Origin: Amoebophrya sp. A120
Taxonomy: Eukaryota > Protista > Dinoflagellata
Reading direction: 5' to 3'
Length of the DNA: 64,000 nucleotides
Assembly (NCBI GenBank): GCA_905178155.1
Contig: CAJINV010000004.1
Coordinates: 9,462,625 to 9,526,624 of the forward strand
A model generated the notes under the pieces. The model made no database searches, was not told the DNA's origin, and saw nothing but the letters and a program-made list of their open reading frames with translations. Below are positions 1,263-59,300 of the stretch, piece after piece (positions within the stretch are counted from its first letter, which is position 1; every line of letters begins with the position of its first letter). A program made the position numbers and the translations under genes.

Positions 1263-1269
1263 AATGGTC

Positions 1270-1363: not shown

Positions 1364-1364
1364 C

Positions 1365-4300
1365 ATCGAGGCACGCGACCAAGAAGCGGAAACGAGGCCG
1401 CCCACCAGTGCCCGAGGAAGGCCGGAATGGCCTTATCTCTTCTACAACACAAGTGAGGTGGACGAGGGACCGATTCACCTAGAAATGTACGACGTACTGG
1501 ACGAGGTCATGCTCATGCACGACATGAAGCGCAGGAATTTGACGAACGCGAACCCGGAGATACTAGAGGCAGTTTTCGGGCCAGAGGCAGATGTTGTGGA
1601 CGAGGAGCATCTGCATCAGGTGCAGGCAGATGTTGTGGACGAGGGGGGCCATCTGCATCAGGATCGGCCACAACATCCTCGTCGCACGGCGTATGCTGGG
1701 ATTCTCAAACGTTACATTCCAAGCTGTTGCATGATTTGTCATGCAAAATGAGCTTCAACATCCACGAGGTGAAGCTAGAGCTACTTCGCACGTTGACAAA
1801 TTTTGGAAAGGCTAAACAGCATCTAGATTTGTGCGGAATTGGTAATGCAACAGGTCGTGCAACCTCCCTGCCTGCTTTGATTTTAGCCATTCCGGTGGTG
1901 ATAAGTTGAAAATGAAACACAATTCGCCAGCTATTTACAAGCAGGAACATAGATAGCACGTTTAAACAGTTACTCGCTCGCCTAAAGAAGCGAGCACCCG
2001 ATTGATTTTAGCCATTCTTGCATTACAAATACATGTAACAGTTGAGAGCGCAACGCTTAAGAACGCCATACGGCAGGAGCTGCATCGTCCGGTAATGATA
2101 AATCGGAAAGTGAAGCGCACGAACTAAAAAATGTGGCCGATGAACGAAGTGAAGTAGGGCAAGATCACGATACAAGCAAAACCGCCACGACCAAGAACGC
2201 CAGCGACAGAGAAGATATGGCTCTACTCACGTCGAGTACTTCTACACGACAATCAGCTACTGAAAATGAAAAAGAAGAACCTACTAGTGAAGCTGGAGAG
2301 AACGACGTGAAGAGGACCTCCGAGGAAAAGAACGATAGCCAGAACAAGGGAGGAACCTCGGGAGATGGAGGTGTTATGCCTTGGACGGTCGTTAGTATAC
2401 AGAAGGGTGAATTTGCAGTGAATTTGTATTGCATGACTTGCATTTACTTGAAAAGAGAAGTGCGCTGCGTAAAGGGCTGGACACGAGCCCAAGCAGCTCA
2501 CGCAGCGTGAAGGGCTGCTCGGTGCCAGGTGGCACTTGCAGCACCGAAAGAAGTAGTGGTAGGTCTTGCTGGGGCCCGCCGGACTGTGTAGCGCATATGT
2601 AACCAAAGAGGGGGGGTCGTGGGGCTCTTGTTCATCTGCGCGCCTGCCTCAGACCTTCCTCTCCGGAATGGTCGAAAGGGAGGGCGACGCCTGAACACAG
2701 GGGCACTAGTTCAACGCGTGCGCTCTCATGAGTTGTGGTTGTGGCTTGGAATTGGATATCTGGGAGTAGCCCCGGCGCCCTTTTCAAAATTCACCCCAAA
2801 ATTCACCGGGCGCCCATTTTCGACCGTGATAAGCAAACTTTAGCGCAGAAAAGTGCTCAAAAAAGTGCACAGATAGGCCATGAGAAGGAACGCAAAGGGG
2901 GAAAAAGCGGAGTCCTCTGTTGCCCTAAGCCCGTCTGTATTCTGCTGAAAATGCCACAAGATTTCACGCGCCTGCCGGGAAAATGCGTCAAAGCTCTCGG
3001 CCGGGTCCTTTCGTCCTTGCCTGCCTTCTTGCTTAGTTGTATGCGCTTCGCGGCCTTTATTTCTGGCGTCTTTGCCGCGGCTGCTGCAGTGCTCTTCTGC
3101 GAGAACGGGGAGGCGCAAAAATCTGCCCAAAGAACGGCGCCCGGGCCATGTCCTCTGGCTGCCCACTGCGCAAAAGCCCGCGGCTGCTGCGCGGTGCAGG
3201 GCCTTCTACTTCCCAGAACAGGGCCAAGAGGGACAATGTCCCGGCGGGCTCATCGGCAATTTGGCATGCAAAATTCACTACAAATTCACCACTTCTCATG
3301 CTGACGGGTGTTAAAGCTCATGAACGATAGCCAGAACAACGATAGCCAGAACAACGGAGGACCCTCGGGAGATGGAGGTGGAGGTTCCTCGCCGTGGTCG
3401 TGGTCGCTCCCGTCCTGGGGGACTGTGGCGCAGGCCGGGGCGAGCGCAGTGAAGGGGGTCCAGGGTGCGGCGCAAAACGTGTTCGACGGCGCCAAGCGGG
3501 GCGCGGAAGCACTCCGACGGGGCGCGGAAGCAGTCCGGCAGCGCGCCGAACGGGGGTGGGACTCGGTGCGAGCCGTTTTCCATTGGGGTGGGCGCGCCGA
3601 CCTCGGGCATGACATCATGCTCGGCCGCCTTGCCAGCCCGGAAGAGGCGAACTTTTTGGACGAGATCAGCAGGTATCAACTGGTCCACCCTGGGTTTCAG
3701 ATACCGGACGACCACCTTTTCGCCCTCTTCCACAACCTCGCACCCCGTCGGCTGCCAGTGGAGGAAAGGCAGAAGCTAGGGAAAGCGGCAGGTCTACGTG
3801 GACGTTATAGTCTCGATTTCGGCGATGGGAGAGGTGTGTGCTCGGATCCGCGCCGCCGCGGCGTTTATTCTTCGGTGTGCGAGAACATGCCCCTTTTGCG
3901 CACTTCTGTCCTTGCCGAAACGCAACCGCAGCGTGGTCTCGAGGACCACGTCGGCAGCGAAGATGCTGCCGTTCTAGCCGTTCCGCCGAGCAGCGATGGC
4001 GAAGATGGGTGGGGAGCAGACGAACACCGCGATGTGTACCGCGTGCCGCTATCTCCTTCCGAGCGTGATTACATCAACACGGAACTAAAGGAAACGCCGG
4101 AGTGGCGAGACATTTTGCCAGAGGACGGCATTCGCTTTGGGGATAACCCGTTGAACCGCGACCACGACGTGCACCCGAAAATCGGAAAGGCAAATGAGGA
4201 CTATATCAGCCACGACCCCACGACGGGCGCGACGCAGCCGGTGCGCCCCATCCCGCGCGCACACTGGCCAGAGGGGTTCGCAGACATGTCCGGCACTTAC

Positions 4301-6576
4301 TTCGCCGGCAACCCTGGCACCATCCGCCCCAGCGTTCCGCAGATAGAGGCCAGCCTCGAGGCTAGCGACCGCGCGGGCTCTGCGTTGCACAAGCAAGAGA
4401 GTGTGTTGCACAAAGACGTGAACTTCATCGAATGGCACGGGGCTCCGGAAGTTTTTTCTCAGCTGACTACTTTTCACGCGACAGCGAGGCTTAATGAAGA
4501 ACACGCGGCGGCAGAACTCCGCTACGCACGTTTTCGGCAGCTGGTCACAGGGTTGCTGGCGGGCCACACGACCCTGTCCGAGAACGACCAGAGCTTTCTC
4601 CTCGAGTTCATCAAGCCATCTGACCAGACCCCCCCTACGGAGGTTGGGAAAAATGACGAGGGGGCCGAAGAGGAAAGAACGCTCTACCAAGTACTAGAAG
4701 ACCGCGAGGCGCAGACCGCAGCCACGGGCTTTCACCAGCTCCACCAGCACGAAAGCGCAAACAGGGCCTCCGAAGGAGATGATGGTGGAGCAGGCCCCAC
4801 CATGGTCACGACCAGGGAGAGCAGTGCCGGCAAGCTGGACGACCTCGTGGAAGATGATCGAGAGCAGACAGAGGACACGAACCCTCGCCCCCGCGCAGGA
4901 CGCAGCGCGCCAGTAACAACTGCGTCGCGAAGTAGTAGGGCAGCAGGGCCGGAGGACGGTTGGAAGGACCTCCGCAGAACGCTGGGTGGAGGAGAGGCGG
5001 CTAATTGGTCTCTGCGTAAAAAAGTCCTCGAGGATGCGGCGTCGCACTGGGACGTTTCGTTTGTCAAGCTTTCCGCAAGCAACCTCTCTGAGGCGTCCGC
5101 GCCCGAATTGTTTGACTTCGTCGCCCATCCGGCGCAGGAAGATCGCGAACAAAACAGTGGAGGAAATAACACCAGGCAAAAAACACTGCCAGCGCTAGCG
5201 GCACTGCCGTCTAACTATGGGGGGCAGGAAGCTGGGCGTGCTGTCGGTGACCTGGTGCAGGATGGCCACTCGCAGCTACTTTTTGAGGCCTCGCTTCTTC
5301 AGTGGCTAGACATCAGCACCAACATCATGGAGCGTTTTTTGGTTAAGAATGACCCACGGACGATTATTCCGGCCCCGCTTCCGGCGCTTGGATGGGAAAA
5401 TTTTACGCGCGGCGGCCATCGCCGTGGCCGCCCCGGGCTCGATGCTCCCGGCAGTGGAAGGCACAGCGGGGTCGTGTCTGCGCTGAATATTACGGACGAG
5501 TTGGAAATCAAGCCGGCTCGCCACGGGTTTTACTTTGATGGCTGGCCGGTCATGGCTGAAGAGCATTTCCAATTTATCCTGGGTAAAAACGTCGCCACCC
5601 CATAGTCAAGTTGGTAAATCTGCTAGACAAATCTCCAAGTTTTGGGAGTCGTGCATGACAAGTTTACATCTGTAGTGTAGTGCTGTTTAGCAAGGACAGC
5701 CGCATCACAAAGACGCCTGCTCATCCTGTTTACAGCATTACAAATCCCAAAACACGACTACAGATTCCTCTCTTGCGGATGTGCATTACAGATTTTTCTG
5801 TGGATGCAAGTCTGCATGACAACTATGGGACAATGGGGGGGCAAAGTGTAGTGTCGCATTTTGTTTAGCATGACAACTACGGGATGGGGACGTTTTTAAA
5901 TAGGATACAACTCGTGGAATGGCTTGGGCGAAGTGGTACACAAATCCAGGACAGCCACTGGCCCGTATCAAATGTAAAAGTGTCTGGGCCTGGAAGAATG
6001 CAACTTGTCATGCTAAATCTGAAGCATGCAAAAATCTGTGTTGCATGATTACCAAAAGTCGCCCAGTTTTGGCCAAGTCGGGAGGGAGTTTCTCACAGAA
6101 TCTGTCATGCTAGGTCCTGCATTCCAGGCTTCGTGGGTCATGGAAAAGCTGCATGACAAATCGCGCATTCTTCCAGACCCAGACACTTTTACATTTGATA
6201 GCCCAGCCTTCAAAACTACACGAAAGCCTCTCAGCAGATTCTGAAGGAGGTCCTGGCCCGACTCGTGAACCGCGCCCGAAGCTTGGCGGCTGTGGGGCTG
6301 GTTCAACAGGAGGACGCGGGGGACCCAGGTCAACGAGAGGAACCTAGCGCGAGGAGCCCAAGCACCTTTACGCCCCAGAAGATTCCAGCCAAGGCCCCGC
6401 TCCTATTCGCTCAGGAGATCCAGATGTGGCACAGAATGCGCAAATTACTTCGCACTAAACGTGAGAACGCGAGATGGCAGCAGAAGCAGCAGCGGAACTT
6501 TTCACGCGATTACGCCGACTGGAATGATCACAGAACGGGTTTGGAGTTCGCGGACTGGTTTACTTCTGATGAATGA
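1365..6576 (+). CDS. Large hypothetical protein, 5' end upstream of the window; exons ~1365-1691, 2076-2390, 3317-5574, 5913-5965, 6206-6576
   Basis: ORFs 1458, 2133, 3308 and 6265 join in frame after removing introners 1692, 5575 and 5966. The 2391-3316 GT-AG join is less certain. No domain recognised. Confidence 0.65.
1692..2070. mobile_element. Family B introner carrying a nested 109-bp insertion
   Basis: TIR tatg..ttctcaaacgttac / gcaacgcttaagaacgccata; TSD cggcg/cggca; colinear with 26183-26421. Confidence 0.85.
2396..3300. mobile_element. Degenerate TIR element forming a ~0.9-kb intron
   Basis: tatacagaagggtgaatttgcagtgaattt pairs with aaattcactacaaattcaccacttctc; right end and TSD not clean. 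Confidence 0.5.
5575..5907. mobile_element. Family D introner (333 bp)
   Basis: TIR tatcct..taaaaacgtc / gacgtttttaaataggata; TSD caatt/caact; homologous to 51658. Confidence 0.85.
5966..6200. mobile_element. Family A introner (235 bp)
   Basis: TIR tatcaaatgtaaaagtgtctggg.ctggaag; TSD gcccg/gccca; frame restored. Confidence 0.9.
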
Positions 6577-7348: not shown

Positions 7349-10300
7349 ATGTCTTACCAAGGACCACCCGGTGCCAGCAGTAGCCACGACAAGCCAGCTT
7401 TGCGGGCACCATCTACATCCTCAGCAAGCGCTATTAAAAACAAGCCCGCGGCCCCACTCCTTCCAAAGCGGACATTACCGAAAATGAGGCCGCAAAGCAG
7501 ACCGACCAGCAGTTCCGGTGGTCTGCCACCACAGCCTGCACATCAACGAGCTCCCGAAAGTACGGCGGGCGATACGGACCACACGCCACGCTCGCACAAG
7601 GAAAAGAAAATCAAAGCTGCGGGGAAGGGGTCAAGACCAGGGACGCCGGTTTCATCGAGAAGTCCCCCGCGCGCAGTTACCTTTGCAGAAGTGGTTCAAG
7701 TTGTGTCGGAAAAAAATAAAAACTATCCCCCGGTTGCGGCGAATAAAAATGGCGCTTCTTCTATAATGGGGGGTTCATCTCCTGTAGAAGCTTTTGCTAC
7801 AACTAATCCAACAAGAAGCTCAAGAACTACATTGAACGCGCAAGAGCCGTCTACTTCATTGAATCAAAATCGAATTATATCGGCAGAAAATAACTCCTCT
7901 TTGTCGTCCACTGTAGCTGCCAACCTTGCGAAGATGAACAACAAGACAAAGGAACAAGAAAAATCCACCCTCTTGACCCACAGCAGCACAGCCCTTGCCC
8001 CGGTGGTAAAAGTGGCGGATTTTGTCGGGGAGCGATGGCAAGAGATAGAGTCGTTGCTCAAGGATCCAGACGCACCTGTACCGGAGCCGTTGAAGCAGCG
8101 CTTGCGGAGGCGAGCGAGAAGTCACAAGCCTTTCACAATTTTGTCTCGGCAAGCGACGAACCGGGACGCGGGGTTCAGGCCCAGGATTACTAATGCCGCG
8201 ATCAGGGACAGGGTGTTGAGGTCGTTGTTGTTGTTGACGCAGCAGCAGATGCAGCAAGCGCAACCTGGTGTGCGGCCAACATTGCCAATGATCCACGACC
8301 ACGACCCAAATGGCGAGAATTATGAAGCGAAAATAATAAAGTCGGAAGGATCTTCAGATGACCTGGAAGATGTTGATCTCGCGAACTTTCGCTTTTCCAC
8401 CTTGGACCGTATCAACAAGAAGAAACATAAAGTCCTTCCACCACGAGAACAATCAGAAGAGGTGTTGGTGGACCTCCGAACGAAAGAGCCAGAAAATGTT
8501 GAAAAATCCCCAAACGAAGTACTAAAGCCCTTCAAGCTTCTCCGGTGCCACAAGCGCCGCGACGCCGTTTTCTCCCACACACTACAACTGTCAAGAACAT
8601 CAAATCCGGAAAATAAAACTAAATGGCTCGGTCTCGCCACCCATGTATGGCACGCGAAACGATTCCACATGGAAACCGTCTGGGGCTGGCGGCTACCGAA
8701 AAATTCCTGCGAGATTGGCGCCCGCGCTGTTTGGCGCAAATGCAAAAAGCAGGGCTTGGTCCTGCACGACAGGTCTTACGCGAGAGTTTTGAAACTTTCT
8801 GCGGCGTATCAAATGTAAAAATGTCTGGGTCTGGAAGATTGCCAGGCTTGTCATGCACGTTTTGCATGACTCCTGATGTCTGTGATGCATGCCCTAGCAT
8901 GACAGATTTTCATTTTGTGAGGGCTTCCGGATGCCTATACCGCATGACAAATGCTGATCTTTCCGTGTAGCAAAGCTTGGACTCTCACTCTCTTTGCTGC
9001 TCATGCAATACAGATTTTTTTAGAATCTAAAATCAGCATGACTAGTTGAATTCTTCCAGACCCAGACATTTTTACAGTTGATACGGCGGCGAAAAAACCA
9101 ATTGTGGACTTGATGCGGGACGCTTTCGGAATTCAGATGAAACACCTAATGGCGAAAAGATATGCACATAAAACTTGTTTTGCTGCAAGAGCAGCCGCGA
9201 CTTCTAAGGACAGCACTGAGGACATCAAAAATTTGAAAACTACAAGAAGTGGTGCCTCTAGTTCCTCTGCCAACATCTTGAAGCGGCCGAAAGCGGGAGT
9301 AGACGCAAAAAAGTCCACGAAGAAGAAGAAATTGAACAAAGAAACGGAAGGGAACTGGCGAGGCCTCGTGGATCTGAGGCGCGGCCGGATGCAGGCACAT
9401 CAAGAACTACTCTCAGTAGGAGCCGACGAGGAGGGTGGACGAGGCTTTTTACATGAAAGCGACAAGGTGGACATGGACCAGAACCAGCTAATCATGAAGG
9501 ACGTGCCGTTCGTTTGGTTTTCTTCTGACGTCGGAAAGAACAATTCATCAACCGAGCAGGAGACCGCAAGAACCTCCTGCCACGACACTTCGTTCGCAAA
9601 AGTGTTCGGGACGACACGGAACAACTCTTCCTCGAGGACGAGGGAGCCACCTCCACAAGGGGAAGATGCTGTTGTTGAACACGCTCTTTTTCTTTGGATT
9701 CACCCAGCGGCGATGTTCGAAGTCCAACAGATGCTTCAGAACGCAGTTGCATCACGACCTGGTGCTGCACCGAAGAAAACAGCTAGTACAGCAGCAGGAT
9801 CTACTGCAATAATAGAGAACCCACCTGCAGCTGGTGGTCGTGCTGCTCCTGGTCATTCTCCTGCTCGACGACGAGAACAAGAACTACATCAAGTCTCAGT
9901 GACCATTTGCGACCATCTGCACACCTTTGAGTTCTTCGGAAATATGGTGAAGAAAGCGATTTTTCCACCGAAATTCTCGAGGACACCTGCTGACGTAGGA
10001 GAGCTAGTCGCGGCGAATCTACCGTACCGGAGGTTCGACCAGGGGGGAGCTGAAGTGATTGACCAACTGCCGGTGGTCATTGTTGATACCAGCTCTAGAG
10101 CCGTGTCTTCAGTGACAACTTCTACGAGAAGTAAGACTATGACCCCCGCCCCTAGTGTTGAGGACCACGACAGCGCGGCAGTAGATGATGAATTTGCTAA
10201 TATTATATCAAAGCGAGAAGTTGTTGTCAACAACCGTTCATCCCTCCCCTCCTGCCAGCTGATCTTTTTCGAGCCGGACCCGGCGAAGGTGCGGCAATTC

Positions 10301-11673
10301 TTCCTTTACTTCAAAATGGAGTGCCTGGCGGAGGTGATTGGGTTCGAGGACCGACACAGGCTGAGAACAGCCTACCTCCAGCCGGAGTTTCCGTTTGATT
10401 TTCCAGAGACAAGAGCTGGCACCGCGTGGCTGCAGAAGAGAGAAAAGGAAAAAGTGGTGGAGTTTATCAAAAAGCCGAAATCGAAACGGGTGAACTACGC
10501 CAAATTCAAGGTCCACTCCCCCTTCTACGGGTTTTGGCCGGATTACGACTTCGAAGTAGATGCGGTCGTGCAGCCGGGAAGTGGTGAAGCTGCTGCTCCT
10601 GCTGGACACAATTGTAGCAATTGTTACATTCCGCTAGAGCGAGACGTGGACTTTCTTCGCCACTACAACAACCACCGAGGAGATGCAGCTGCGAGAAAGG
10701 TGGCATCAAGCGCGAAAGGGAACAATAGAGACGGCGAGGACCAGGTACAACTGTGTCAACAAACTCTGCCAGAAATCGCCAACCTTCGCACAGTCGTGCA
10801 GAGAGACGGAATTCGCTATCTTCCCGGTAGCTGCAAAAACTTTCCGGCAGAAAAGATCCGCGATGTGGTTGCCTGTCGCGTTATCCCAGTGTCGACCGGA
10901 GTGCCCGAACCCTGCACCCATCTTTATGTGATGACGAAAAATGCCGGAGCCGCGCCGGGATTGGACTCTGGAGCAACTGCTGATCAAGCGGCAGGAGCTC
11001 AGGTGCCGATGGACGTCGAGGAGAACGAAAATTATAACGACAGCGCAAGAGGTCCAGCGGCAGTCTCTCATTTTACAAACGGCACAATAAGACGTCGAGG
11101 TAGCGACCAACATCACAAAAACTTCCGCCTCTGCGGCTTCGTTCTTTCCGGTGGTTATTCACATGCCTTTATCAAAAGGAAAAATCCCCCCTCCCCATAT
11201 CAAAACGAGGTCTCTGATGCAGGATTTGCGTACACAAATAAGATTTGTCTTGCTGGAGAGGAATGCAGCCCCATACTAAGCCGAAGTAGAGAGGTTCTGG
11301 CCTAGGCGTCTAGCATGAGAAACGTCCGTGCTGTAGGCCCATCAGCATCACAAACCGCCGGCACAATGCTGCGGAGCTTGTGGAGTTGCCTTCTTGCAAG
11401 ACAGACGTGATCTGAGGTCTCAAATCAGCAACACAAATTTCCGGAAACATACCTTTTCGATATGGGGAGGGGGGATTTTTCCTCCTAATAGCCTTCGGAC
11501 GGGCGATCGGGTTGGGCTTCGTCGAGACAGAGGCTTACTCGGGCTACCTGTCATCTAACCAAGTCGACACTTTCTTGTACATGCGAAATACTACGTCGAA
11601 CTGTTACCACAGGGTTTACGTATCAGCTGATACAGATTTGGGACAGAGAACCAGTAGGAAGGATGTTGGGTAG
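7349..11673 (+). CDS. POP1: RNase P/MRP subunit POP1; exons 7349-8806, 9089-11169, 11496-11673 (~1238 aa)
   Basis: POP1 motif THVWHAKRFHM..WGWRLP and LHDRSY; POPLD-like FPFDFPET.AG..KPKSKRVNY..SPF; C-terminal GFVLSGGYSHAFGRAIGLG appears only after introner removal. Confidence 0.9.
8807..9083. mobile_element. Family A introner (277 bp)
   Basis: Family A TIRs; perfect TSD cggcg; joins KLSAA|AKKPIVDLM. Confidence 0.92.
11170..11490. mobile_element. Family C introner (321 bp)
   Basis: TIR ..ggaaaaatcccccctccccatatc; perfect TSD gcctt. Confidence 0.92.
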
Positions 11674-46770: not shown

Positions 46771-48694
46771 AGCGAGAGGGGGCTACTCTGTTGTGCTTTC
46801 GTGCTCCTGCGATCAACAAATTATATGCTTTGACTTTTTTTGCTGTAATCGTATCAATGTAGTTTTCCGAAAACTAACAAGCACACACAGGAATACGATA
46901 CTGATTCTCATTATCTAGCCCAAGTACTTCTTGTTATGTGGAGACCGAGACACACCTTCCAGGAGCTGCGTTACATTTCTCTCAAAAGCAAAACTAACTA
47001 CCAGACAAGCCTTGAATTAGTACAGCCGTTGCGCGATTATATTGGTGCACCAACATCCTAGGACAATTACGTTATTAACGCCTGCGACCGTGATTCGATA
47101 GAGACTACCGACAATGCTCAGGCGGAGCCACTGTTGGGGCCGTTTATGACCACTTGGAGTCTAACTAGAAAATCTCAATTTTTTTCCTCGCATCAACGTT
47201 GTAAATCAGAGATAAACTACAGCAGAAATCGAAATACAAATAAGGTCGTCCGCGCCATGATTTCACCAAGTTTTCGTTGCGAAAGTGCAAGTAATTGGCT
47301 GATAGCGATAGTACAGACGCTTACGGTATTGCATCATGAAACAGAAACAAGATCAAGATTCACGTCAAGAAAAATAGTAAGGATCGCATCCAGTACGGCT
47401 GCGCAGGGCCTTATGTTGAAACAAATTCCAACTGAGATAGTCATAGTTTATTCAATTTCTACAGCTGAGCTTAAAATATTATATATAATTTGAATTTTTC
47501 TCAAAAATCAACACGATGGGCTATTACCTCCCCCGTCGAGGAAATTTATCAGTATTTAAAATGAGCCGATCTATCGGCGATATCATGTCGGCGCAGACAA
47601 CATTGAGATAAAGTAAGTATAGTATAGTCAGTATGATTTCCAGTGAAAAGCAGCATGTTGGGACGAGTGGCGCTGTTACGAAGTTCAGCATGACGAAAGA
47701 GTACCAGAAGAAAATCGCTTATTTATTAAACAAGGTCAAGTAAGTATATCTATATGATGAGTAGTACTTCAACTTCTTGGTCATGCAGGAAAGCAGGTGC
47801 TTTCTTTTGAATATGAAACCCCCTGGAACTGGATGTGGTGCCTCTGCAAGTCCAAGTTTCAAGAAAAAGTCTAGTACGGCCGTTGTATGCTTCTTCCTCC
47901 TCGCTTTTTTTGTTCGCATGTTGAGGGTCGTAAAAAGTTTCGTAGCAGACCGCGGCAGAAAGGTCACACAGTTGTGAGGCTATCGTCGTGCGCGGTGATT
48001 TTATTGCGAGCGTGGTGTGCTGTGGTGGAACATGGAACTGGACGACGTAATGGATGGTGCAACTGATGCTCTACCGCAAACGGGTGCGCATGCCATCCCC
48101 AGAAGTGTGGAAGATGATCTCCAGAAGTGTGGGAGTAGAGGTTCCCTAAAGATGAAAAAATACTTGTTACTAGCTATGTTATTGTGTGATATTTGAGGGC
48201 GGTCGCGGTGGCGGTCTTGGAGATGAATTTCCCCCCTGTGCTGTCACGAGAAAGAACGCCACCTGAGAGATCTATTCCTTCTGCAGAAAGAAGGCAGGAA
48301 CAAGTATAACTAGTAGACTACTAGTTGGCAAAACAATTGAGAGTCCCGCATCTGGTCGTTGTGGTATAAACATAAAGCACTGACTATCAACACTTATTAC
48401 CATTATCGCAGCACTTCAGGCCAGGGAACAAGAAGCGTGCACAGTCTCGTCGTTTTGAGGAACAAGAAGATATCACCAGCAGCCCGGCAACCTCTCCGTT
48501 AGTCGGCATCTTCAGCCGAGTTTGTCTACTTAGTGTGTGCTCGTGTTATTTATTGCGACGCACGGGGGCAGGACGAAGAACCTCGTCATGACCATTTGGC
48601 ACCACGATGTTGCAACCTCAACGGACGGCGCAAGAACCGTAATCAGCACAGAAACAAAACTCGTGAGCTACTACCTTTCAGTTCGGGATTCGTG

Positions 48695-51600
48695 ATGGGA
48701 GGTGGTGGAGCTCCAGCTCCTGCGCCTTCATCTTCACCTTCCACGAATGAACAGGATGTACTAGTCGTGCCACGACCTGCGCCTGCACCTGGCGCAGAGT
48801 TCGCCGAGAAGCACGAACGCATGCAGGTCCTGGTGGTGGAGGAAACACACGCAAAGGAGCACACGAGAGCGCGCGCGACCGACGTGTGCGAGGAACAAGT
48901 AGAACATCAAGTATCACTATCATCTGCTGTCGCGAGCGACGTTGAGGTCTCGGTGGACGACGTTTTGCGCAAGCGACGCCAGGAGCAAGGGCGATGCTCT
49001 CCCTCCTCCGAGCGCTTCGGATTCCGCTCTGTGTTGAGACACAGCTTATGGGATTCTCCAATGCCGCATTGTGTCTGCTGTTTACTATACATAATTTTGT
49101 CATGCAAGGCTAGCATGCATGAGCACGTTTTGCATACAAATTGAAATTTGTAATGGATCTCCATACTGTTTTTAAGTGTGTCGAGAACTTGCCATCTTTG
49201 GAAGCAGCTTGATAGTGTTGGAAATTTGTTTGAAGAGCAAAAAAAATTTTGCATGACAAACTCATGTAACTATAGCTAGCAATTGCAATGTAATGTTTGA
49301 GACCTCCATACCGCTTTCACAAAACGTTTACCGTCGTCGCCAATTTCTCCAACTCCGTTGATATGCCTTGAAAATTAACCATATCATCCAATTTGTCATA
49401 CAAAACATGGATTGAAGTCGCCTTTCGTCATGCAAAAAGTGGATGGTTAATTTTGATTTTCAGTGCATAGCACAATGCACGTTTCTCCAGAATTGGGCTC
49501 CCACCGTGTTCTTCCCACTTGTCGCCGCTATGATTTGGACCATAATACGGGGGTTAGGGCCGAGAGTGCTCTTTTTCCTCAGTGGATCGTCTGCGGGGCG
49601 GACGTGCGCTCTCACGCCGGCGGCTTTTGATGGTGTCGTGCATTTGCAGACGCAAGGAGAAGTCGAGGCGAATTATGAAGCAGCTGGTGCCATGTTGGAG
49701 GCCATTGGTCCACCGCAGCTCCAGCTTCAAGCAGAAGTAGCGAAAAATATTACTGCAGCAACATCTTCTTCTGGCTCTCCTGGCACAACAGCTGCGTCCT
49801 TTTCGGTGTTTAGCGAGTGTCGCCAGTACAATTGGACGACCACGTCCACGATCACGAACAGCTCATCAACCCAGGTCGTTCAGTTCTTGTGTGGAGCCAG
49901 TTCTATTCCGTCTTTCGGTCAGATTCTTCTCCCGCCACCCCTGTTTTCCGCCTTCTGGGATATTGGAATTGTGTACGGCTTCCACTTGCATTTGCACATG
50001 TTGGGCGCCCGCATCACACACGCTCTTCCGCCCACGGGGGTGCCCGCCGTTTTGTTTTACGGGAGCTCCCTTGTCCTGTGCACGCTCGTCTCGGTCGCGC
50101 TTGGTTTCGCAGATTATGAACTCGTCCTTTCGGGGTGGACGCGGACTTCTGCGATGATCGGATCCGTCGTACTCTTCCTCTCGACCTTTGTTTACGCTGC
50201 GGTCATCGCGTTGCTCAACATCCACAAACGCGAAAGTGATCTGAAAACGACAAGCAAGAGAACGACCACTACACCAAAAGTAAAGATGGAGGCGCTGGTA
50301 CAAATACAATCTGCTATACCTGTATCACCAAGTAAAAATCAGGAAGAACAAGAAGAAGAAGCAAATGAGCAGCGGGTCGTAGGAAAAAATAAAGCGATAT
50401 TCATAGCGTCGACTACGGAACAAGCCGGAGCCCACTCCGACGAAAGAAACAACAGCTATCCGGTTCCGGAGGTTGTTGTCCCGCAAGGCGCGCACAAAAT
50501 AACAGGGTTTGCGAATGCCTTTATCGGCTCACACGGTACCGATAAAACACAAACTGGCAGTGGTGATACAATCGCGAATACAACGGACTCACACAGTTTC
50601 GAAAAGTTTGCGGGGACGAACAATCAAACGGTGAGAAGCGAAGAGGGCGACGCAGGAGTTGTAGTCGCGAGCAAGAATTGTTCTCATTTAGATGTAGAGA
50701 CATCGAAGAACGAGGACACAAAAACGCAAATAAGCGACAAAGAAATGAAGAGCAAGCCGAAACGACGCAACATGTTCGTGACGCCGGCGTTGCGGGGTCT
50801 TTCCGTGTTTGTCATGACTGGTGGACTGACGTTGTGCTTCGGTTCGGTCTTTTTCTTGACGAATTCCATCCTCGTCGAGTTTGTGCTGGATCCGCTTGCG
50901 GCAAATACGGCCATCGCCCTGCCAGTTCGATTGGCGATCGAGCTTGCCATCTCCCTCCTGGTGTTTCTCATCTGGGTCCCCTTGGCGGCGCACTACTGGG
51001 GGAAATCCGTCGCGATTGCGATCTTTGTACCGCTGCCCTACTGGATTTCCGCCGAGGTCTACGAGGAGAGTCAGCAGCCGGGTAGTCATTTTGCCGGCGA
51101 GGGTGATGATGCAAAGCGGGAACGCGAAAAGCAGCGCAAACGCCGCATGAGGGAAACCTTCGAACATATTCCTTGAAAATCAACCATACCCATCCAATTT
51201 GTCACGTAAAACATGAAGGAAGTTCTGTGTTTGTCATGCAGATGCAAAGAAAGAATGGGGATGGTCAATTTTCAGGGAATAGAACAGATTAAGATCGTCT
51301 ACTTCTTTTCGACAGACTTGATTCGCATCACGCTCGGACGGGGTATTTTGATGCGGTACAGTGGGTATTCGGTTTTGCTACTCCTTCTCACCGACTTCGT
51401 CTACCACATGTGGCACTTTGGATTTCGCCAGCGCGAGTCTCTGCTGCTTTTCAGTGTGGTCGCCGCAGCAAAAAATCGCAACGTCCGGCGAATGCAGTCG
51501 ACGCGTTTTCCCGTCTGGTTTCGTGTGATCGACCTGTGGACGCAGTTTCGCAACCGCGCCCCACTCTGGTTCACGATAGGCTGGCATGAGACCTGGGATT

Positions 51601-54600
51601 TCGCGGAAATGCTTAGTATTCGGGAGACCGGGGAAGGGTTGAAGAAAACAACTGACGTATCATATGTAAAAACGTCCCCACACCAGAGTCAAGTTGGGAA
51701 CCTAGGAAGACAAATCCACAAGTTTTGGGAGCCACGCATAAGAAGTTGCAGTCCGTAGTGTAGTGCATGTAAGCAAGGACCACCGCATCACAAATCCATC
51801 TGCTTATCCTGTTTACAGCATTACAAATTCTAGAACTCGATTGGAAATGCCACTCATGGAGATGCGCATCACAAATCTTCCTGTAATCGCAAATCTGCAT
51901 GATAACTATGGGGTGGGAATGGTTTTACTCAGGATATGACGACGATGCGCGGGTCCGGAAGGAAAGAACCGCGAAGACGTACAAGGATCTGACTATATCC
52001 TGTGCAAAAGTATCGTACTCGTAGTAATTGCAATCATGCAATACAAATCTCCCTCTTAAGACAAATCAGCATTACAAATTTCATTTTTCATGCTGAGGAA
52101 ATTTGTAATGCATTTATACCACTGCGATACTTTTGCAATTCATAGACGATGTCTTTCAGCAACGTGCAGGTGATTCTGAAGCGCGTTCCAAACCATGTCT
52201 GGGACGAGATGTTTCCCGATGATCTTTCCATCGGACAGATTACTTCTACCGTCGCCTGCTATCCTAGGGAAAATTTTCACCAGCACGAACTAACATCCTC
52301 TTCTTCAGTTTGTAAATGCAATAGAATCACAATCAGAACCACCAGTGGTTTTACGCGTGCTTATGATGTAATGCTAATGTTAATGTTGTCGTTCTGCATT
52401 ATTACGCATTGATTGAGGTGACGGTGAAGATTTTGTTCAGGATACCAGGGGAAGGAGAAGTACTGAAGAAACTGATCGATCGTCGCGAAGGTCCCACTCT
52501 TCGGGCGCAAGTTTGACGGCCGGAACGCGCAGATCAAACTCGGCGGCGAAGTTGACGAAAACAGGGAGTGACAAGTGGAACGCGAAGGCGGGTCGCGGAG
52601 GTCGACACCATGAAAACTCGCGAAATAAAAAAACACCTGGAGGTGTTGCGCAGATCATAGATGCTGACCTGCGTGCAACGGTCGATCAAAAGCAGGACAT
52701 GTTCCGAGAGACCGTCGATACGCGCGCAACAATGGATTCGCAGTGCGAAATTGTCGATGTGCACGACGAGACCACGCGAGATCGGTTCTCATCGAGGATG
52801 TCGGAGAACAATACGCTCTTGCACTCGCCGGCACGAGTATCAACTGCTCCTTCGGCCGTCTTCTCGTCAACATCTCTGTCACTCACGGAACATCAGAGAA
52901 CGGAGGTTGTTCCCGCTACCGGCAGTGACGCAGCTGCTGCGCAGCTCCGTGGACGGTCGTGCTCCGGAGCAAGTGCGGCGACGGGCTCCAGCAAGCGGTT
53001 ACGGCTTGGACGGTAGTTAGAAATCCCGGCCGCGGATATTGTGCGGATATTATGACTCAAATGGAAAACGTGCGACAGCTTTTCTCTCGTCGCGGCCTGT
53101 GAGTCGAAGTGTTGACGGTGGCAGTAGCTCACCGTCCGAAGATGGTGGTGATCAGTGCGTCAGCTCAGCGAAGCTCCGTGATTGCGTGCAGGAGGAGGTC
53201 GCTCGTAGGTATTTATATTGGAAAATCGGCACGCCGCTATGCGTGTTTGTTTGGTTTCTGCATGGCATGCATTTTGCTACATTTTCGTGATAGTGATGAC
53301 ATGCCTTGAACCAAAAGGCAGAAGGCTTGGCAGGAGCCACGCCACGCAGCGTAGAGGAAGCTACCGCAAAATACATCGAGACGGAAATAGCCAGGCCGCG
53401 GCTGAATGACATCCAGAACGCCTCAGGGTTTAGGTCGGTGCAAGCCCTCCTTCGGCGAAAGAGCCCAAAAGCGCGGGTACTTTTTTGCACGTCAGTAGTG
53501 GGAGCGTATGCTTTCCCTTTTTTTGTAATGCGCCAGACTGCTTGATGATGCCACGTAGATGAAGGGCCCATAAGCATCATGAGCTGACAGAAGCAGTGCA
53601 GCTGGGATTTATCCTTTCTTGCCAAACACCTCGCAGGTCGCCATTGCGCTCGAGCTTGCAGATATCCACTACACCAGAATGATGACGATCAAATTGGCGG
53701 AAAGTGCGCACAAAACGGTGCAAATATGAATTGCAGATACGTCTCTGCCTGGGTGTGGAAATGCAAATATGCGTCGCAAATATGCATTGCAAGTATGCAC
53801 TTTAAATATGCATTGCAAACATGTCTTGCAAATATGCATTGCAAATATGCATTGCAAATATGCCTTGCGAATATGCATTGCAAATATGCATTGCAGATAT
53901 GCAATGTGCTCCGGAGCAAGTGCGGCGACGGGCTCCAGCAAGCGGAGCAGGATTTCCGTGCTCTCATCTACCCCAAATGTTCTCCGGCTCAGCGGTCCCC
54001 ACACATCTACTAGCAGGCCTCCAAGGGCGAAAAGCGCAGACACGTGGGCGCGACGAGCAGGAGCACCTGCGCCAGCAACGGAGCAGACAGCGCGCATCCT
54101 TCCTGAGCACAACGAAGGTGGTGATGCGACTGAAGACGCACGCATGAGGCGTGGTCAAAACAGTGCGCCGGCCGGCTCGGTGGGTCATAGTGCTTCTTTC
54201 TGGAGGTGGAAGCGGCAAAGAAGCGTCGCCCGTCAATTGTCTTCCACCGATGTGCTCCCAGGTAACCCAATCCCGACATCCCGTCTGCCTTCCACATCTT
54301 CTCTGCAGCGCCCGTCGGTTCGCAGTGTTACGAGTCGGCTCAGTTCAGTAGTCCGTGGCGCATCCTCCTTCCGCAGGACCGTGCTTCTGCCCGCGGAGCA
54401 GCACGTGGAGGACGTCTCCGCGTGTGTATTAGCGCACGAGTACGTATATCACACAGAAAAAAGCTAGCAGTGCAAAAGCAAAAAATACATGAAACACCAT
54501 GGTGGCTGCATCGATGAAGATGAGCAACGTTTTTGCATAGCCTATTAGCAATATGCTATGGGCGGCCTCTTCAGGAGACCAGGGACAGACAGTGACAGAT

Positions 54601-55541
54601 ACTTCATATGAGCCCCCCCCGCTAGTTTTTTCTCTACTGGGATAACGTGGACATTTTTCAGGACTTCGTCTGGTTTTACCGCGATACGCTCTTCACGCGC
54701 TACCAGGTGCGCGCCATGGTTCGCATCTTCACTTCCCTGGCCTGGATCTTCATTCCTGCAGTCGCTTTCTTGACCGACATCCGCCACTATCCCGGCTTCT
54801 CTACGGATTTGGTCACTAACGTCGTGTACCCAGTTTCATTTTTCTGCTACGACTATCCTGTGCAAAAGTATCCCACTCGTATTGCAGTCATGCATTACAA
54901 ATCTTTTTCTCAAGAAGGTGAATCAGCAATACAAATTGTATTTCTTTTTCTCATGCTGAGTAATGCATTTATACGCGTGCGATATTTTTGCAATTCATAA
55001 CGACTGCTCCGAGTGGATTACCCTGACTTTTTTTTTCTTTTTCGCCGACGCGGAAGCGAAGCACCGGTTTATATCAAATGCAAAAATGTCTGGGTCTGGA
55101 AGGTTGGAACTTGTGATGCTAACTTTGGACTCTAAAAAAATCTGTATTGCATGACCAGCAAGAGGAGTCTAGTTTGTGCTACGCGGGGAGGGCGTTTGTC
55201 ATGCGGAGTAGGTATCAGGAAGCCCTCTAAAGATATGTGATGCTAGGCCGTGCATTGCAGACATCCTGGTCCATGCAAAACATGCGTGACAAATCTCAGA
55301 ATCTTCCAGACCCAGAAAGTTTTGCATTTGATGGTTTACGTCGCTCTTCAACTCAGCCTTTAAGCAGAAAACCAGCGACCTGCGGCTGGTGTGCATGCTG
55401 CTGGCCGTTTTCTTTGCCGTGCTGTGCTTCGGCACCCGCTGGAACCCGAGGAATCTGCGATTGCTTCGGGCGGATACGGGGATTGCAGATTTATCTTGGG
55501 CAGACGTGCAAAATGTCTGCGCCGAGGCATGGGCGAGGTAA
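48695..55541 (+). CDS. Multi-pass membrane hypothetical protein split by 9 introners and one direct-repeat-bounded insertion
   Basis: ORFs 48533, 49443, 51213, 52149, 52513, 53769 and 54647 chain in frame; several hydrophobic helices; start and stop uncertain. Confidence 0.7.
49047..49310. mobile_element. Divergent family B introner (264 bp)
   Basis: TIR tatgggattctc / gagacctccata; TSD cagct/ccgct. Confidence 0.8.
49362..49469. mobile_element. Family K introner (108 bp)
   Basis: TIR tatgccttgaaaattaacca; TSD decayed (gttga/gcaca) but the +5 rule restores frame. Confidence 0.78.
51167..51281. mobile_element. Family K introner (115 bp)
   Basis: TIR tattcc.tgaaaat; perfect TSD gaaca. Confidence 0.9.
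51658..51936. mobile_element. Family D introner (279 bp)
   Basis: Perfect TSD tgacg. Confidence 0.88.
51996..52144. mobile_element. Family E introner (149 bp)
   Basis: TSD gacta/gacga. Confidence 0.88.
52260..52444. mobile_element. Family L introner (185 bp)
   Basis: TIR tatcct..aaaat.ttcacc; TSD cctgc/ccagg; frame restored. Confidence 0.78.
52999..53905. mobile_element. 907-bp insertion flanked by perfect 40-bp direct repeats of exon sequence
   Basis: gtgctccggagcaagtgcggcgacgggctccagcaagcgg occurs at 52959-52998 and 53906-53945. Confidence 0.8.
53718..53905. repeat. Tandem array of ~13-bp AAATATGCATTGC units
   Basis: Directly visible degenerate tandem copies at the right end of the insertion. 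Confidence 0.88.
54447..54644. mobile_element. Family M introner (198 bp)
   Basis: TIR tatc..agaaaaaa.ctagc; TSD acgta/acgtg. Confidence 0.82.
54854..54999. mobile_element. Family E introner (146 bp)
   Basis: Perfect TSD acgac. Confidence 0.9.
55072..55333. mobile_element. Family A introner (262 bp)
   Basis: Perfect TSD gttta; ends ATG. Confidence 0.9.
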
Positions 55542-56355
55542 GTAAGTAGAACAATGAGGGGACACGCCTTTGGGTTCGGATCGAGTTCATCTTGTAGTTG
55601 AATTGAATTCTATAAATTAGTATTTTTTTCAATGGAGTACTTTTGGCGCACCGCATACAAAAATACTGAGTCTTTTACTGCAGCTCTTATTTGCCTGTAC
55701 GTCGACTAAAGCTGTAAAAGCAGAGGCCTTGGCGAGAAAAGGGAAAGCAAATAGCAAAACCAATATAGAAAAGCTCCTACATCAAAAGATATAAAAGATG
55801 TCGGAAGCATAGAAGACACCATCGCTACTGCAGTGCAGTTGTGTTGGATAAAAATATCTGTCACGTAGAACAATTTGAATTTGGGGCGTGATGGCTTCGA
55901 CCGTATCGGCGAGGAGTATAAACTAATTGTGATTTCATCAAGAGCGCACATGATAAAAGCAACTCTGATTCCATTTTTTTGCGTTTGGATACACTGTCGC
56001 TTGAGAGGACGGAAATGCAGGCGAAATGTGATGGAGTCCGACAGAACAAAAGAGAACGGCGGCAGGAGAGATCACAAACGCCGAGCTTGTGGACGCAATG
56101 AGCCACCTTGTTACGCATAATTGAACTTCTTCGAGCTTTGCAAAATAATACGAGTACTAGATTGATGTTTTTTATACGTACGTCACACCCGAGCGTCGTC
56201 GCCGTAAGTGTAGTGACATTGTAGCAGGTTTTTATCTCAAGCACCGAATTCTGGATCTGGAAAAATCCAAAGAAATGGCTTCCTCCTGTAGTGCACCAAC
56301 CAAGAGAAAAGGACGACTGGTGCAACGACCAAGAGGAAAGGAAGTTGCGAAGAAG

Positions 56356-59300
56356 ATGCAACTACTTCTGCACATTCTAGCATCAACAGCCAACGTCGCA
56401 AACGCCTGGACCGACACGGGACACATGATAGTGGCCAAAATTGCCGCGGACGGGCTGATATGAATTGCAAATGTGTCTGGGTCTGGAAGGTTGCAACTTG
56501 TGATGCAAATTTCACACAACACAAAGATCTGTGATGCATGAACGGCAAATGCGGCCCAAAACTTGGCACCAAAACAGGGAATTTGTTATGCGGATTAGGG
56601 ATGGGGACACCTTCTCAAGACGTGTGATGCTAGGGCCTGCATGCCAGACCTCCCAGATCATGCAAGAGCAGCATGGCAAATATCTGGACCCATCCAGAGC
56701 CAGACATGTTTGCATTTGATAGCTGAAGCCGGAGGAGCTCTCGTTTTTCCACAATTTGACGGACATGCTGTACCACCCCTCGGTGAAATATCCAGGAAAA
56801 AACACCCCTCCCCATCCAAATTGTAGTCATGCGAAACATGCATAAACTCCAGTGTCTGTCATGCAAAAAATGGATGTGGATGGATGTTTTTTCCTGGATA
56901 TGAAAGCAGCGCGCACCGGGGACTTTGTGAAGCCGGTGGACACGCTGTGGGGCGTGGCCAGCTGGAACGATAATATTGACATCGCGTATTTTTACGAGGA
57001 AGTTTTTGATGGTGCCAAAAGTTCTGCATCAACACGTCGGAAACGAAGAAATTTGCGACTCTGCTGTTCTTTCAGCTGCCGTGCCGCATCACTTAACATG
57101 TTGACGCGCGCGCGCCCACGCATTTCTCCATGCAGCACGAGCGCCGTTGGCCCCCTATCTTTCCTGCCTTTGCCGCGCCGCATTGCGCCTTCGCCGCCAC
57201 CGGCATTTTCCGTTTTGTTCAAAATAGCAGGTGATGATGTTTGCATTGACGCCGCCGGCACTGCGATTATTTCAGTCGCTAAGCACAGTCGTTCATCTCC
57301 TCCCCATTTGATGTTTCATCTGTTGCGTATGTCAAAGAAGATGAAGATGAAGAGAACACTGAAGCTGAACGAACAAGAAGATAAAAATCATGATCAACAA
57401 CTCTTATCAGGTTCCACTTTCAGAAAACGTGGCACTTTACCGACACGGTGGTGCGGCTCGACAAGGGCTGTAGATTGATCGGCGACGGACAGAAGATACC
57501 TGCTGCAGGAGGGCCGCATCTTCAGGAGGCTGGGAAGATGATCGCAAACAGGACAACAATCAGCCCGCTGCTGTCAACGTCGTCCACGACTCCCAGGGCC
57601 GCCGCGGTGCACGAACTCAACAAGGGGCACCAGCAGCACGTCGACTCCACGACGCCGAGGGCGGTCGGCAAAAGCGAGACGGGGCTGAGAAGTCTCCTCG
57701 GTGAAAAAGACAAAGAAGAAAATGACAAGCAGATGATGTCGATGAGTACCGACTACGGGGGATCAAACACAAACACCTGCGACAGCACCCACCCGCCCCG
57801 GCCCGACGAGAAGCACCAGGACGTTATCTACGGCCTGACCTCTGCCTACTACGGAGTGACCAGCGAGTATGGGTGTGTCAGGATCGAAAACGTCAAAGTT
57901 GAAATGATTTTTAATAATGCATAAAATGCATGACCCGAGGTACGTGTGTTGCAGAGCAGGCAATGGAGGCCGATTGTAAGCCTGTTTGGGGTTACAGCTC
58001 GAGCTGCTAAAGTAGCATGAGAAAATCGCTCTTCTTTGCCTCAACAGCATTACAAACTGGATTTAGTGACCACCGAAATTTGTCATGCGCCACTTCAAAA
58101 CTGGGTTCCAACTGGCATCCATTTTATGCATGACAAATCATTTGAACTTTGTCGATTTCGATGCTGACAGTTCCATAGCGAGGTGAGCAAGTGGAATGAC
58201 CCGGCCATCAAGAAGTTTCAGCAGGCGTGGTGGATTATGAAATGCAAAAGCATTGTACTAGTATACATTGCATTACAAATTAGCTATAGCTCAGCATTAG
58301 CATTACAAATGAAATTTGTAATGCTGTTTTACCTTTAGGAAAGAGATTTGTCATGCATAAACAGCAATTACTACGAGTGTGATACTTTTGCGGTGCATAT
58401 GGATCCGCATGCTGATCCACTTTCTCGGCGACCTGCACCAGCCCTTGCACGCCGCCGCGGGCTGCAGCGCGCGCCACCCAGAGGGGGACCTATCAAATGT
58501 AAAAATGTCTGGGTCTGGAAGATTCTGACACTTGTCATGCACGTTTTGGATGAGCCCTGATGTCTGTGATGCATGCCCTAGCAGCACAGATTTTTTGAGA
58601 GCTTCTTGATGCCTAAGTTGCATGACAAATGCCCTCTCCGCGTAGCAAGAATCACATTCCCTTTGGTACTCATGCAATACAGATATTTTTGGAATCCAAA
58701 TGCAGCATTACAAGTTGGACTCTTCCAGACCCAGACATTTTTACATTTGATAGGACCGGGGCGGAAACGAATTTGGGATCGAGACGAACATTAAGAATTA
58801 CTTCGAGGGTATGGAATGCAAATATGTCTGGGTCTGGAAAGTTGTGATGCTAAAAGTGAATGAGATTTCCACTGCAATACGGAGCCAAGCATGACAAATT
58901 TTTTGGCTGCCATGTCTTACGTATTCCGCGTGGCAAACTGCGTTTTTGCATGAAAGGTAAGACGGCTTTTTCGTGTCTACGCATCACAGATTCTTGAGTC
59001 GTGTCAGACTAGCATGACGAGTCTCGCAATCCCCCAGACCCAGACATATTTGCAATGCATAGAGGGAAGGGCGACCTTCGTCTCGGAGCTGCACTTGCTC
59101 TGGGACTTAGCGGGGGGCAGCTACGCCGCGGGACCGAATTGGCCGCTGAACGCCACGGGAGAGGCCTTCGTGGCGGAGGAGGCCAAGGTACTAGTACTTA
59201 CTTCGGTTCCGTTTCGCGTTGGTATGTTTCTCTCTTCGCAGCGCCGTGATGCAGCCGAGCATTTCGAATTCGTAATAAAATCGTTGCACCCCCGGTCCTC

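What the first reader, a model, noticed from the sequence alone, without database searches (positions are those of the whole stretch)
1692..59061. Genome-invading introner system: 46 TAT...ATA elements in ~14 families, each removed with exactly 5 extra nt
Seen: every element has TIRs and a 5-bp flanking duplication (perfect in 32 of 46) and lies in coding sequence. Deleting element+5 nt restores the frame and rebuilds conserved motifs (S1/P1 GDRGGN, helicase LVFTN, POP1 C-terminus), so the genes look intact rather than disrupted. Known: introners and abundant non-canonical introns with inverted and direct repeats are described in Amoebophrya, so the class is not new. Inference: unrelated TIR families obey one shared end/TSD rule, implying one mobilising enzyme class and one removal pathway.
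Basis: partly seen in the sequence, partly recalled or inferred. Interest (0 to 1): 0.9.

Follow-up and report, generated by a model that had tools for sequence, protein, structure and literature searches.

The report
Transposon introns removed by one rule
These are 46 short transposon copies inside genes of the marine parasite Amoebophrya, a class of unusual introns already published, which are dropped from the message together with exactly five flanking letters, likely at one fixed cut position guided by a predicted hairpin rather than by ordinary splice signals.

Summary
In detail: 46 TAT...ATA inverted-repeat elements, 32 with a perfect 5-bp flanking duplication. One gene of the window matches an annotated Amoebophrya sp. 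A120 protein, and these are the A120 introner elements of Farhat et al. 2021, so the class is known. The element+5 rule holds in whole-gene reading frames, in RNA-like contigs (five elements) and in the annotated protein (6 of 6 junctions). The families are not unrelated: they share a TAT-N7-AAAA end and an internal GCAT(G/T/C)ACA motif (41 of 46). Not found in what I read: (1) three junctions with unequal flanks fit one cut, 1 nt before TAT and 4 nt after ATA (the fifth position rests on one annotated junction); (2) one family occurs in both orientations in + strand genes; (3) sliding this one geometry with a motif-seeking rule reproduces the published spread of splice dinucleotides; (4) elements sit in pairs 20-80 nt apart. 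The splicing machinery and the transposase were not identified.

The parts
1692..2070 (.). introner, family D; flanks differ at position 5; host ORF without homology support
5575..5907 (.). introner, family E; flanks differ at position 4; 892-codon + ORF
5966..6200 (.). introner, family A; flanks differ at position 5
8807..9083 (.). introner, family A, perfect 5-bp duplication, in POP1-like gene
11170..11490 (.). introner, family C, perfect duplication, in POP1-like gene
12980..13127 (.). introner, family B, left end TAC, perfect duplication
13189..13338 (.). introner, family B, right end ATG; flanks differ at position 4
13806..14062 (.). introner, family A, perfect duplication; host ORF without homology support
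15570..15834 (.). introner, family A, right end AAA, perfect duplication; 4649-codon ORF
15892..16048 (.). introner, family B, perfect duplication; 4649-codon ORF
16799..16954 (.). introner, family B, perfect duplication; 4649-codon ORF
16995..17318 (.). introner, family C, perfect duplication; 4649-codon ORF
17402..17725 (.). introner, family C; flanks differ at position 5; 4649-codon ORF
18190..18336 (.). introner, family B, perfect duplication; 4649-codon ORF
19454..19610 (.). introner, family B, perfect duplication; 4649-codon ORF
24766..25018 (.). introner, family A, perfect duplication; 4649-codon ORF
25075..25309 (.). introner, family D, perfect duplication; 4649-codon ORF
26183..26421 (.). 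introner, family D, perfect duplication; 4649-codon ORF
27732..27887 (.). introner, family B, perfect duplication; 4649-codon ORF
27944..28110 (.). introner, singleton, perfect duplication; 4649-codon ORF
33453..33661 (.). introner, family F (opposite orientation to 41818); flanks differ at position 1; U2AF65-like RS/RRM gene (name recalled; RRM_1 hit)
33695..33959 (.). introner, family A, perfect duplication; U2AF65-like gene
34708..35031 (.). introner, family C, perfect duplication; U2AF65-like gene
35074..35337 (.). introner, family A; flanks differ at position 4 (synonymous); U2AF65-like gene
41146..41372 (.). introner, singleton, perfect duplication; DEAD-box helicase
41425..41676 (.). 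introner, family A, perfect duplication; DEAD-box helicase
41818..42026 (.). introner, family F, perfect duplication; helicase junction aligns without a gap to the AT5 ortholog only at +5
44193..44304 (.). introner, family G, perfect duplication; small gene with weak match to ATP synthase subunit f (E 0.12)
44334..44586 (.). introner, singleton, flanks differ at positions 2-4; RNA-like contig resumes at 44591
46158..46279 (.). introner, singleton; flanks differ at positions 3 and 5; host ORF without homology support
46316..46566 (.). introner, family A, perfect duplication; host ORF without homology support
49047..49310 (.). introner, singleton (D-like ends); flanks differ at position 2; gene of CAD7947568.1
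49362..49469 (.). introner, singleton; flanks differ at positions 2-4; annotated protein keeps left position 4
51167..51281 (.). introner, singleton, perfect duplication; RNA-like contig length fits +5
51658..51936 (.). introner, family E, perfect duplication
51996..52144 (.). introner, family B; flanks differ at position 4 (synonymous)
52260..52444 (.). introner, singleton; flanks differ at positions 3 and 5; annotated residue 875 is W, which needs left position 3 and right position 5
54447..54644 (.). introner, singleton; flanks differ at position 5 (synonymous)
54854..54999 (.). introner, family B, perfect duplication
55072..55333 (.). introner, family A, right end ATG, perfect duplication
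56459..56721 (.). introner, family A, perfect duplication; S1/P1 nuclease gene
56789..56900 (.). introner, family G, perfect duplication; S1/P1 nuclease gene
57868..58177 (.). introner, singleton, perfect duplication; one of four skipped by RNA-like contig record 7
58236..58399 (.). introner, family B, perfect duplication; skipped by record 7
58491..58752 (.). introner, family A, perfect duplication; skipped by record 7; long predicted hairpin (z -8.2)
58810..59061 (.). introner, family A, perfect duplication; skipped by record 7
59188..59379 (+). canonical GT-AG intron of the S1/P1 gene, skipped by the same contig (shows the contig is processed RNA)
48694..53016 (+). host gene; element+5 splice gives 1063 aa identical to CAD7947568.1 (Amoebophrya sp. 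A120) except residue 875

Best explanation
These are Amoebophrya A120 introners: short non-coding inverted-repeat transposon copies with a 5-bp target duplication that are removed from the message with five flanking letters, likely by the host spliceosome using the predicted end-to-end hairpin to place one fixed cut. Shown: the anatomy, element+5 removal, intact frames, both orientations of one family in + strand genes, and a shared internal motif. Inferred: a single transposase, or a small related set, mobilised all families by binding the TAT-N7-AAAA ends and the GCATBACARAT repeats, cutting targets with a 5-nt stagger, often 20-80 nt from an existing element. Inferred from three junctions: the intron starts at duplication position 5 (N-TAT) and ends at position 4 of the right copy, so the boundary letters are whatever the target was. 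Inferred and untested: a modified U2-type spliceosome without U1 does the cutting.
For: Anatomy; 92 of 107 family-A elements from a separate metagenome assembly have a perfect 5-bp repeat and none a longer one. Frames: 36 elements in 9 segments open only at +2/+5/+8; 4649 codons against at most 1788; 0 of 300 random phase sets; U2AF65-like gene stop-free only at +5 of +3/+4/+5. Exactly 5: RNA-like contig gap 316 nt and stretch 376 nt, ortholog ungapped only at +5 at 41818, annotated protein 6 of 6. DNA contig spans two elements without differences. Register: 49362 and 44334 keep left position 4, 52260 takes right position 5. Only 2 of 46 slide to GT/GC-AG. Orientation: 13 of 36 family members in the minority orientation. 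Motif: 118 in 10.2 kb of elements against 7 in 53.8 kb outside; 65 matches against 0.18 expected; 283 of 289 metagenome elements. Hairpins z -8.2 and -3.7. Literature match. Canonical GT-AG introns sit in the same genes.
Against: The cut between positions 4 and 5 rests on one annotated junction for position 5, and an annotation is not raw reads. RNA was seen only as contigs of a run whose RNA status is the tool's guess, over 40500-60400; no junction sequence was displayed, lengths were computed from the piece table, and reading record 5 needs my assumption on minus-strand record coordinates. The element-by-element frame test was mostly uninformative: +5 sole best in 16 of 46, +3 sole best in 2, ties in 28. 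Two of three helicase junctions align poorly to the ortholog. No transposase was found, and Farhat found none in A120. Terminal TAT is no more conserved than other fixed TIR positions (96-98%), so there is no sign of extra splicing selection on it. Five elements lack the motif. Nothing here tests the spliceosome.
Confidence: 0.7

Rival explanations
1. Same elements and same +5 outcome, but the cut has no fixed register and may fall anywhere inside the 5-bp repeat, using homology between the two copies.
For: 32 of 46 junctions are slidable and say nothing. Farhat draws the splice sites as variable relative to the hairpin.
Against: All informative junctions are compatible with one cut after position 4. 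Two elements with only 2 of 5 flank matches are still removed at +5 (44334, 49362). The published variety is reproduced by sliding one geometry.
Confidence: 0.25
2. A protein endonuclease and ligase, not the spliceosome, cuts the RNA hairpin 1 nt before and 4 nt after the stem and joins the exons.
For: Boundary letters match background, removal is orientation-blind, hairpins are strong, and U1 was not detected in A120.
Against: A120 keeps 83 of 89 spliceosomal proteins and U2, U4, U5, U6. Fritillaria non-canonical TIR introns are reported to be spliceosomal. No candidate enzyme was looked for here.
Confidence: 0.25
3. The elements are deleted from DNA in expressing nuclei, like ciliate internal eliminated sequences, so the RNA never contains them.
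For: TA-like ends and precise loss with one repeat copy. The DNA-run joint table was swamped by element-to-element joints, so rare empty forms are not excluded.
Against: A 4143-nt DNA contig spans two elements without differences. Farhat validated these as introns from RNA-seq against the genome.
Confidence: 0.03
4. The genes are disrupted and the skipped forms are reverse-transcriptase template switches across hairpins flanked by direct repeats.
For: A hairpin with direct repeats is the known substrate for such artefacts (recalled).
Against: Exons stay stop-free over thousands of codons while family members differ by about 15-30%. Hosts include POP1-like, helicase and U2AF65-like genes. Elements with mismatched flanks are skipped at the same length.
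Confidence: 0.02

Closest known systems
Amoebophrya A120 introner elements (Farhat et al. 2021, PMC7789003)
   Same: Same strain by protein identity. Inverted repeats starting TAT, 7 looser letters, then at least 3 A; direct repeats of 3-5 nt; hairpin; non-canonical boundaries; a supplementary legend names 5-bp direct repeats.
   Different: The paper calls repeat length and splice position variable. Here the repeat is uniformly 5 bp, one register fits, and an internal motif links families; 'GCAT' and 'subterminal' do not occur in its main text. Its figures were not visible to me.
A120 introner families in Gozashti et al. 2025 (PMC12130899), especially family 38
   Same: TIR DNA elements of 105-330 bp in many families; family 38 is noted '5-bp TSD, TA/TA termini' and has integrase-like ORFs.
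   Different: Their automated calls give duplication lengths of 2 to 11 and several splice-site mechanisms across families. No link between family 38 and these elements was tested here.
Euglena nonconventional introns (PMC12501133)
   Same: Very abundant non-GT-AG introns, mostly slidable within direct repeats, with short inverted motifs set off-centre from the splice sites.
   Different: Signature is N3CDG...CHGN5-6; here the offsets would be 1 and 4 around TAT...ATA, with long TIRs and a fixed 5-bp duplication.
Micromonas, Aureococcus and Fritillaria introners
   Same: MITE-like origin, TIR and target duplication, one duplication copy removed.
   Different: The algal ones carry or co-opt canonical splice dinucleotides and Fritillaria favours AG-AC/AG-AT; here only 2 of 46 can reach GT/GC-AG.

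Membership tests
Amoebophrya A120 introner elements | lies in the A120 genome | tested here: met
   563-aa exon 100% identical to CAD7947568.1
Amoebophrya A120 introner elements | terminal inverted repeat starting TAT, 7 looser nt, then at least 3 A | tested here: met
   logo of 92 ends: TAT in 88, A in 74-84 at positions 11-14; definition
Amoebophrya A120 introner elements | direct repeat of 3-5 nt at the exon/intron boundary | tested here: met
   5 bp, perfect in 32 of 46 and 92 of 107
Amoebophrya A120 introner elements | absent from mature RNA with non-canonical boundaries | tested here: met
   6 elements by RNA-like contigs (5 by length, 1 by resumption point), 6 by annotated protein (one shared); 35 of 46 have neither check
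Amoebophrya A120 introner elements | repeated in families | tested here: met
   36 of 46 in 7 multi-member families; further copies
Amoebophrya A120 introner elements | hairpin joining the ends | tested here: met
   predicted only, 2 of 46 folded: z -8.2 and -3.7
Amoebophrya A120 introner elements | spliced in a host without detectable U1 snRNA | not testable with these tools
   no whole genome held; claim taken
MITE (non-autonomous TIR DNA transposon) | short, TIRs, constant target duplication, many copies | tested here: met
   108-379 nt
MITE (non-autonomous TIR DNA transposon) | cognate autonomous element with a transposase | tested here: inconclusive
   longest 5-bp-duplication element in 175 loci is 1104 nt with no ORF I could recognise by eye; no family scan run on it
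Ginger/integrase-type DNA transposons | Ginger termini and integrase-like transposase | tested here: inconclusive
   ends here are TAT...ATA; Gozashti states A120 family 38 lacks Ginger termini and homology though the dataset labels it Ginger; no transposase available here
canonical U2 intron | GT/GC...AG boundaries | tested here: not met
   2 of 46 can be slid to GT/GC-AG
Euglena nonconventional intron | N3CDG...CHGN5-6|R signature | not tested
   signature; not scanned; the ends seen are TAT...ATA

The most novel reading that the evidence does not exclude
The tens of thousands of A120 introners are one superfamily, mobilised through a shared GCATBACARAT site, and are all excised in either orientation at a single off-centre register (1 nt before TAT, 4 nt after ATA) that ignores boundary sequence. 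The reported unprecedented variety of Amoebophrya splice sites would then be largely an alignment artefact of one structure-guided splicing code.
Probability: 0.45. Interest if true: 0.7.

Novelty: already known. Interest (0 to 1): 0.4.

Why it matters
How Amoebophrya removes more than 60% of its introns without GT-AG ends or a detectable U1 is an open question in the papers read. A single length rule, a candidate register and a shared motif turn it into tests: tally non-slidable junctions, mutate the stem or the 1-nt and 4-nt overhangs, and pull down proteins on the motif. It would also allow correct automatic annotation of these genomes. The class, the strain, the TAT ends and 5-bp repeats are already in print, so the gain is a refinement.

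Tried and rejected
No whole genome is held, so no genome-wide census or transposase search. No RNA holder was listed on record. Raw RNA runs X7 and X8 gave only partial 90-95% matches in 4 and 5 of 30 bins and say nothing about these junctions. RNA evidence covers 40500-60400 only; the 24 elements left of it have none. Protein searches found nothing in their length ranges, so further position-5 junctions (5966, 17402, 46158) stay open. The family-A end pattern had 0 matches in viral contigs. Rfam had 0 matches in 32000-64000. Earlier findings: none. Rejected: using Farhat Table S4 (5' GT, CT, AT, TT) as support for the 4|5 cut, because sliding alone reproduces that pattern. Rejected: selection for GT or AG in the duplication; composition is near a phase-matched background in 126 of 289 strand-called elements. 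A codon-phase bias in the metagenome set (63/34/29) did not repeat in the window (17/12/17, two elements there probably mis-phased). Considered and left open: the motif as a branch site; it occurs on both strands and at many offsets, which fits a DNA-binding site better. Huff et al. 2016 was not held.
Full report
Observation. Among inverted repeats with any ends, a perfect 5-bp outer repeat picks out TAT...ATA in 29 of 39 hits, while 4-bp and 6-bp repeats pick out no triplet and two shuffles give 1 and 2 hits. A gapped scan gave 51 candidates; I dropped 7 weak ones and added 2, reaching 46 elements of 108-379 nt, 32 with perfect repeats. In loci fetched from metagenome contigs by a family-A end pattern (the 80 rows listed are from one assembly, 175 loci were analysed), 92 of 107 elements chosen by their ends alone have a perfect 5-bp repeat and none has 6 or more.

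Removal rule. Deleting element+k from whole genes opens the frame only for k = 2, 5, 8 in 9 segments holding 36 elements. The largest gives 4649 codons against at most 1788, and 0 of 300 random phase sets reach it. A U2AF65-like gene (name recalled; Pfam gives RRM_1) with four elements and four GT-AG introns is stop-free only at +5 of +3/+4/+5. Hosts include POP1, DEAD helicase and S1/P1 nuclease domains. The element-by-element test was weak: +5 sole best in 16 of 46, +3 in 2, ties in 28. Exactly 5 comes from three sources. First, in run X1 (RNA by the tool's guess) contig record 7 leaves 316 nt between two exon pieces, which equals four elements+5 plus a canonical intron (+4 gives 320, +6 gives 312), and record 5 leaves 376 nt, which fits +5 at 51167. 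Second, the Amoebophrya AT5 helicase ortholog aligns without a gap at 41818 only at +5; the other two helicase junctions align poorly. Third, the annotated A120 protein CAD7947568.1 equals my +5 splice over 1063 residues and 6 junctions, but for one residue. A DNA-like contig spans two elements unchanged.

Where the cut falls. The one differing residue is informative. At 52260 the flanks differ at positions 3 and 5, and the annotated W needs a cut after position 3 or 4. At 49362 the annotated residues need a cut after 4 or 5. At 44334 the RNA-like contig resumes at 44591, so right-copy position 4 is gone. The common solution is a cut between positions 4 and 5: the intron would be one target base, the element, then four target bases. 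Position 5 rests on one annotated junction. Under this register the 46 introns show 29 dinucleotide pairs, and only 2 of 46 can slide to GT/GC-AG. Duplication letters are near background in 126 strand-called elements of 289.

Published splice-site variety. Farhat lists GT, CT, AT, TT starts and mostly AN ends for A120. One A120 family in Gozashti's dataset has 5' GT 0.26, CT 0.20, AT 0.15, TT 0.07 and 3' AG 0.25, AC 0.20, AT 0.11, AA 0.10. Sliding 270 perfect-repeat elements to the placement that best matches GT..AG or CT..AC gives GT 0.28, CT 0.21, AT 0.14, TT 0.06 and AG 0.26, AC 0.28, AT 0.09, AA 0.13. The scoring rule is my stand-in for recalled BLAT behaviour; Farhat did align transcripts with BLAT; the published family may not be one of mine. 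So the variety can arise from one geometry, and those tables cannot be used for or against the 4|5 cut.

Families are related. Clusters number 11 to 20 by threshold, yet ends share TAT and an A-run at 11-14. GCAT(G/T/C)ACA occurs 118 times in 10.2 kb of elements and 7 times in 53.8 kb outside, in 41 of 46 elements, and in 283 of 289 metagenome elements (that set required a good repeat or a strong TIR). The longer form has 65 matches against 0.18 expected. It first appears about 33-47 nt from an end and faces both ways, as a subterminal transposase site would (inference). Of 36 members of multi-copy families, 13 lie in the minority orientation although all host frames are on +, so removal cannot need a polar signal. 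Two elements fold into end-to-end hairpins.

Placement. All 46 are in coding frames that cover about 67% of non-element DNA by my own gene spans, which is partly circular. In the window 17 of 45 neighbour gaps are 20-70 nt (null mean 2.75, maximum 11 in 20,000), 15 of the 17 between different families. In the metagenome loci 53 of 130 gaps are 21-80 nt, 11 are 81-140 and none is under 21; long gaps are truncated there. This suggests target preference beside existing elements rather than tandem copying. Linker-biased insertion is reported for other introners, but I did not test chromatin.

Mechanism. Most likely a cut-and-paste transposase with a 5-nt stagger spread these elements, and the host's altered spliceosome removes them using the paired ends as a ruler, so that the message is restored exactly. 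The transposase is unknown: none in the longest related element found, none reported by Farhat in A120, while Gozashti's family 38, noted as '5-bp TSD, TA/TA termini' with integrase-like ORFs, is a lead. The spliceosome's role is untested; a protein nuclease-ligase is the main rival.

Comparison and novelty. Farhat describes A120 repeats starting TAT, seven looser letters and at least three A, with direct repeats of 3-5 nt and 29,850 repeated introns. This is that class. In six searches and the text read I did not find a fixed register, the internal motif, orientation-blind removal or the pair spacing stated for Amoebophrya. Figures and subscription papers, including Roy et al. 2023 and Huff et al. 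2016, were not seen and may cover some of this.

What I saw of each paper. PMC7789003: passages, sections 11, 12 and 25 whole, supplement passages and part 3 of 5, no figures. PMC12130899: passages, supplement passages and 56 of 58 A120 rows of file 8, files 13 and 14 not searched. PMC11282704, PMC9860276, PMC12501133: passages only. Others: search listings only.

Verdict. Real, correctly described, already known as a class; the refinements are useful and testable. Interest 0.4.

Noticed in passing
window 62091-63460: A 1370-bp intergenic element with TAT...ATA ends, nested inverted repeats over its whole length, an 8-bp flanking duplication and none of the internal motif; a different foldback transposon (8-bp duplications recall hAT elements, from memory).
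   Followed up: partly
window 1243-1364: Right half of a degenerate family-A element with no matching left end, upstream of the first counted element.
   Followed up: partly
window 53726-53905: Tandem array of a 13-bp unit that equals the first 13 nt of a family-A end, following a decayed element end.
   Followed up: partly
window 52959-52998 and 53906-53945: A direct repeat of about 40 bp joins the end of the CAD7947568.1 gene to the start of the next ORF; a GT-AG intron near 52999-53950 could fuse them, but the annotated protein stops at 53016 and an RNA-like contig runs through 52739-53261.
   Followed up: partly
window 32928-35783: The U2AF65-like splicing-factor gene itself carries four introners and four canonical introns; two of those canonical introns hold the introner motif (33230, 34202).
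   Followed up: partly
window 15300-31889: A 4649-codon ORF with 12 introners and no Pfam family in its two largest exons; no database match in the one length range searched.
   Followed up: partly
window 1-340: Purine-rich 18-bp tandem repeat at the window start.
   Followed up: no
L024 105-1208: A 1104-bp TAT...ATA element with 5-bp duplication and four motif copies, the longest relative found; no recognisable coding sequence by eye.
   Followed up: partly
window 55071-55122: Raw RNA run X7, which does not match the exons here, holds a related family-A end at 90-95% identity beside a different flank, so a relative appears to carry the family at other sites.
   Followed up: no
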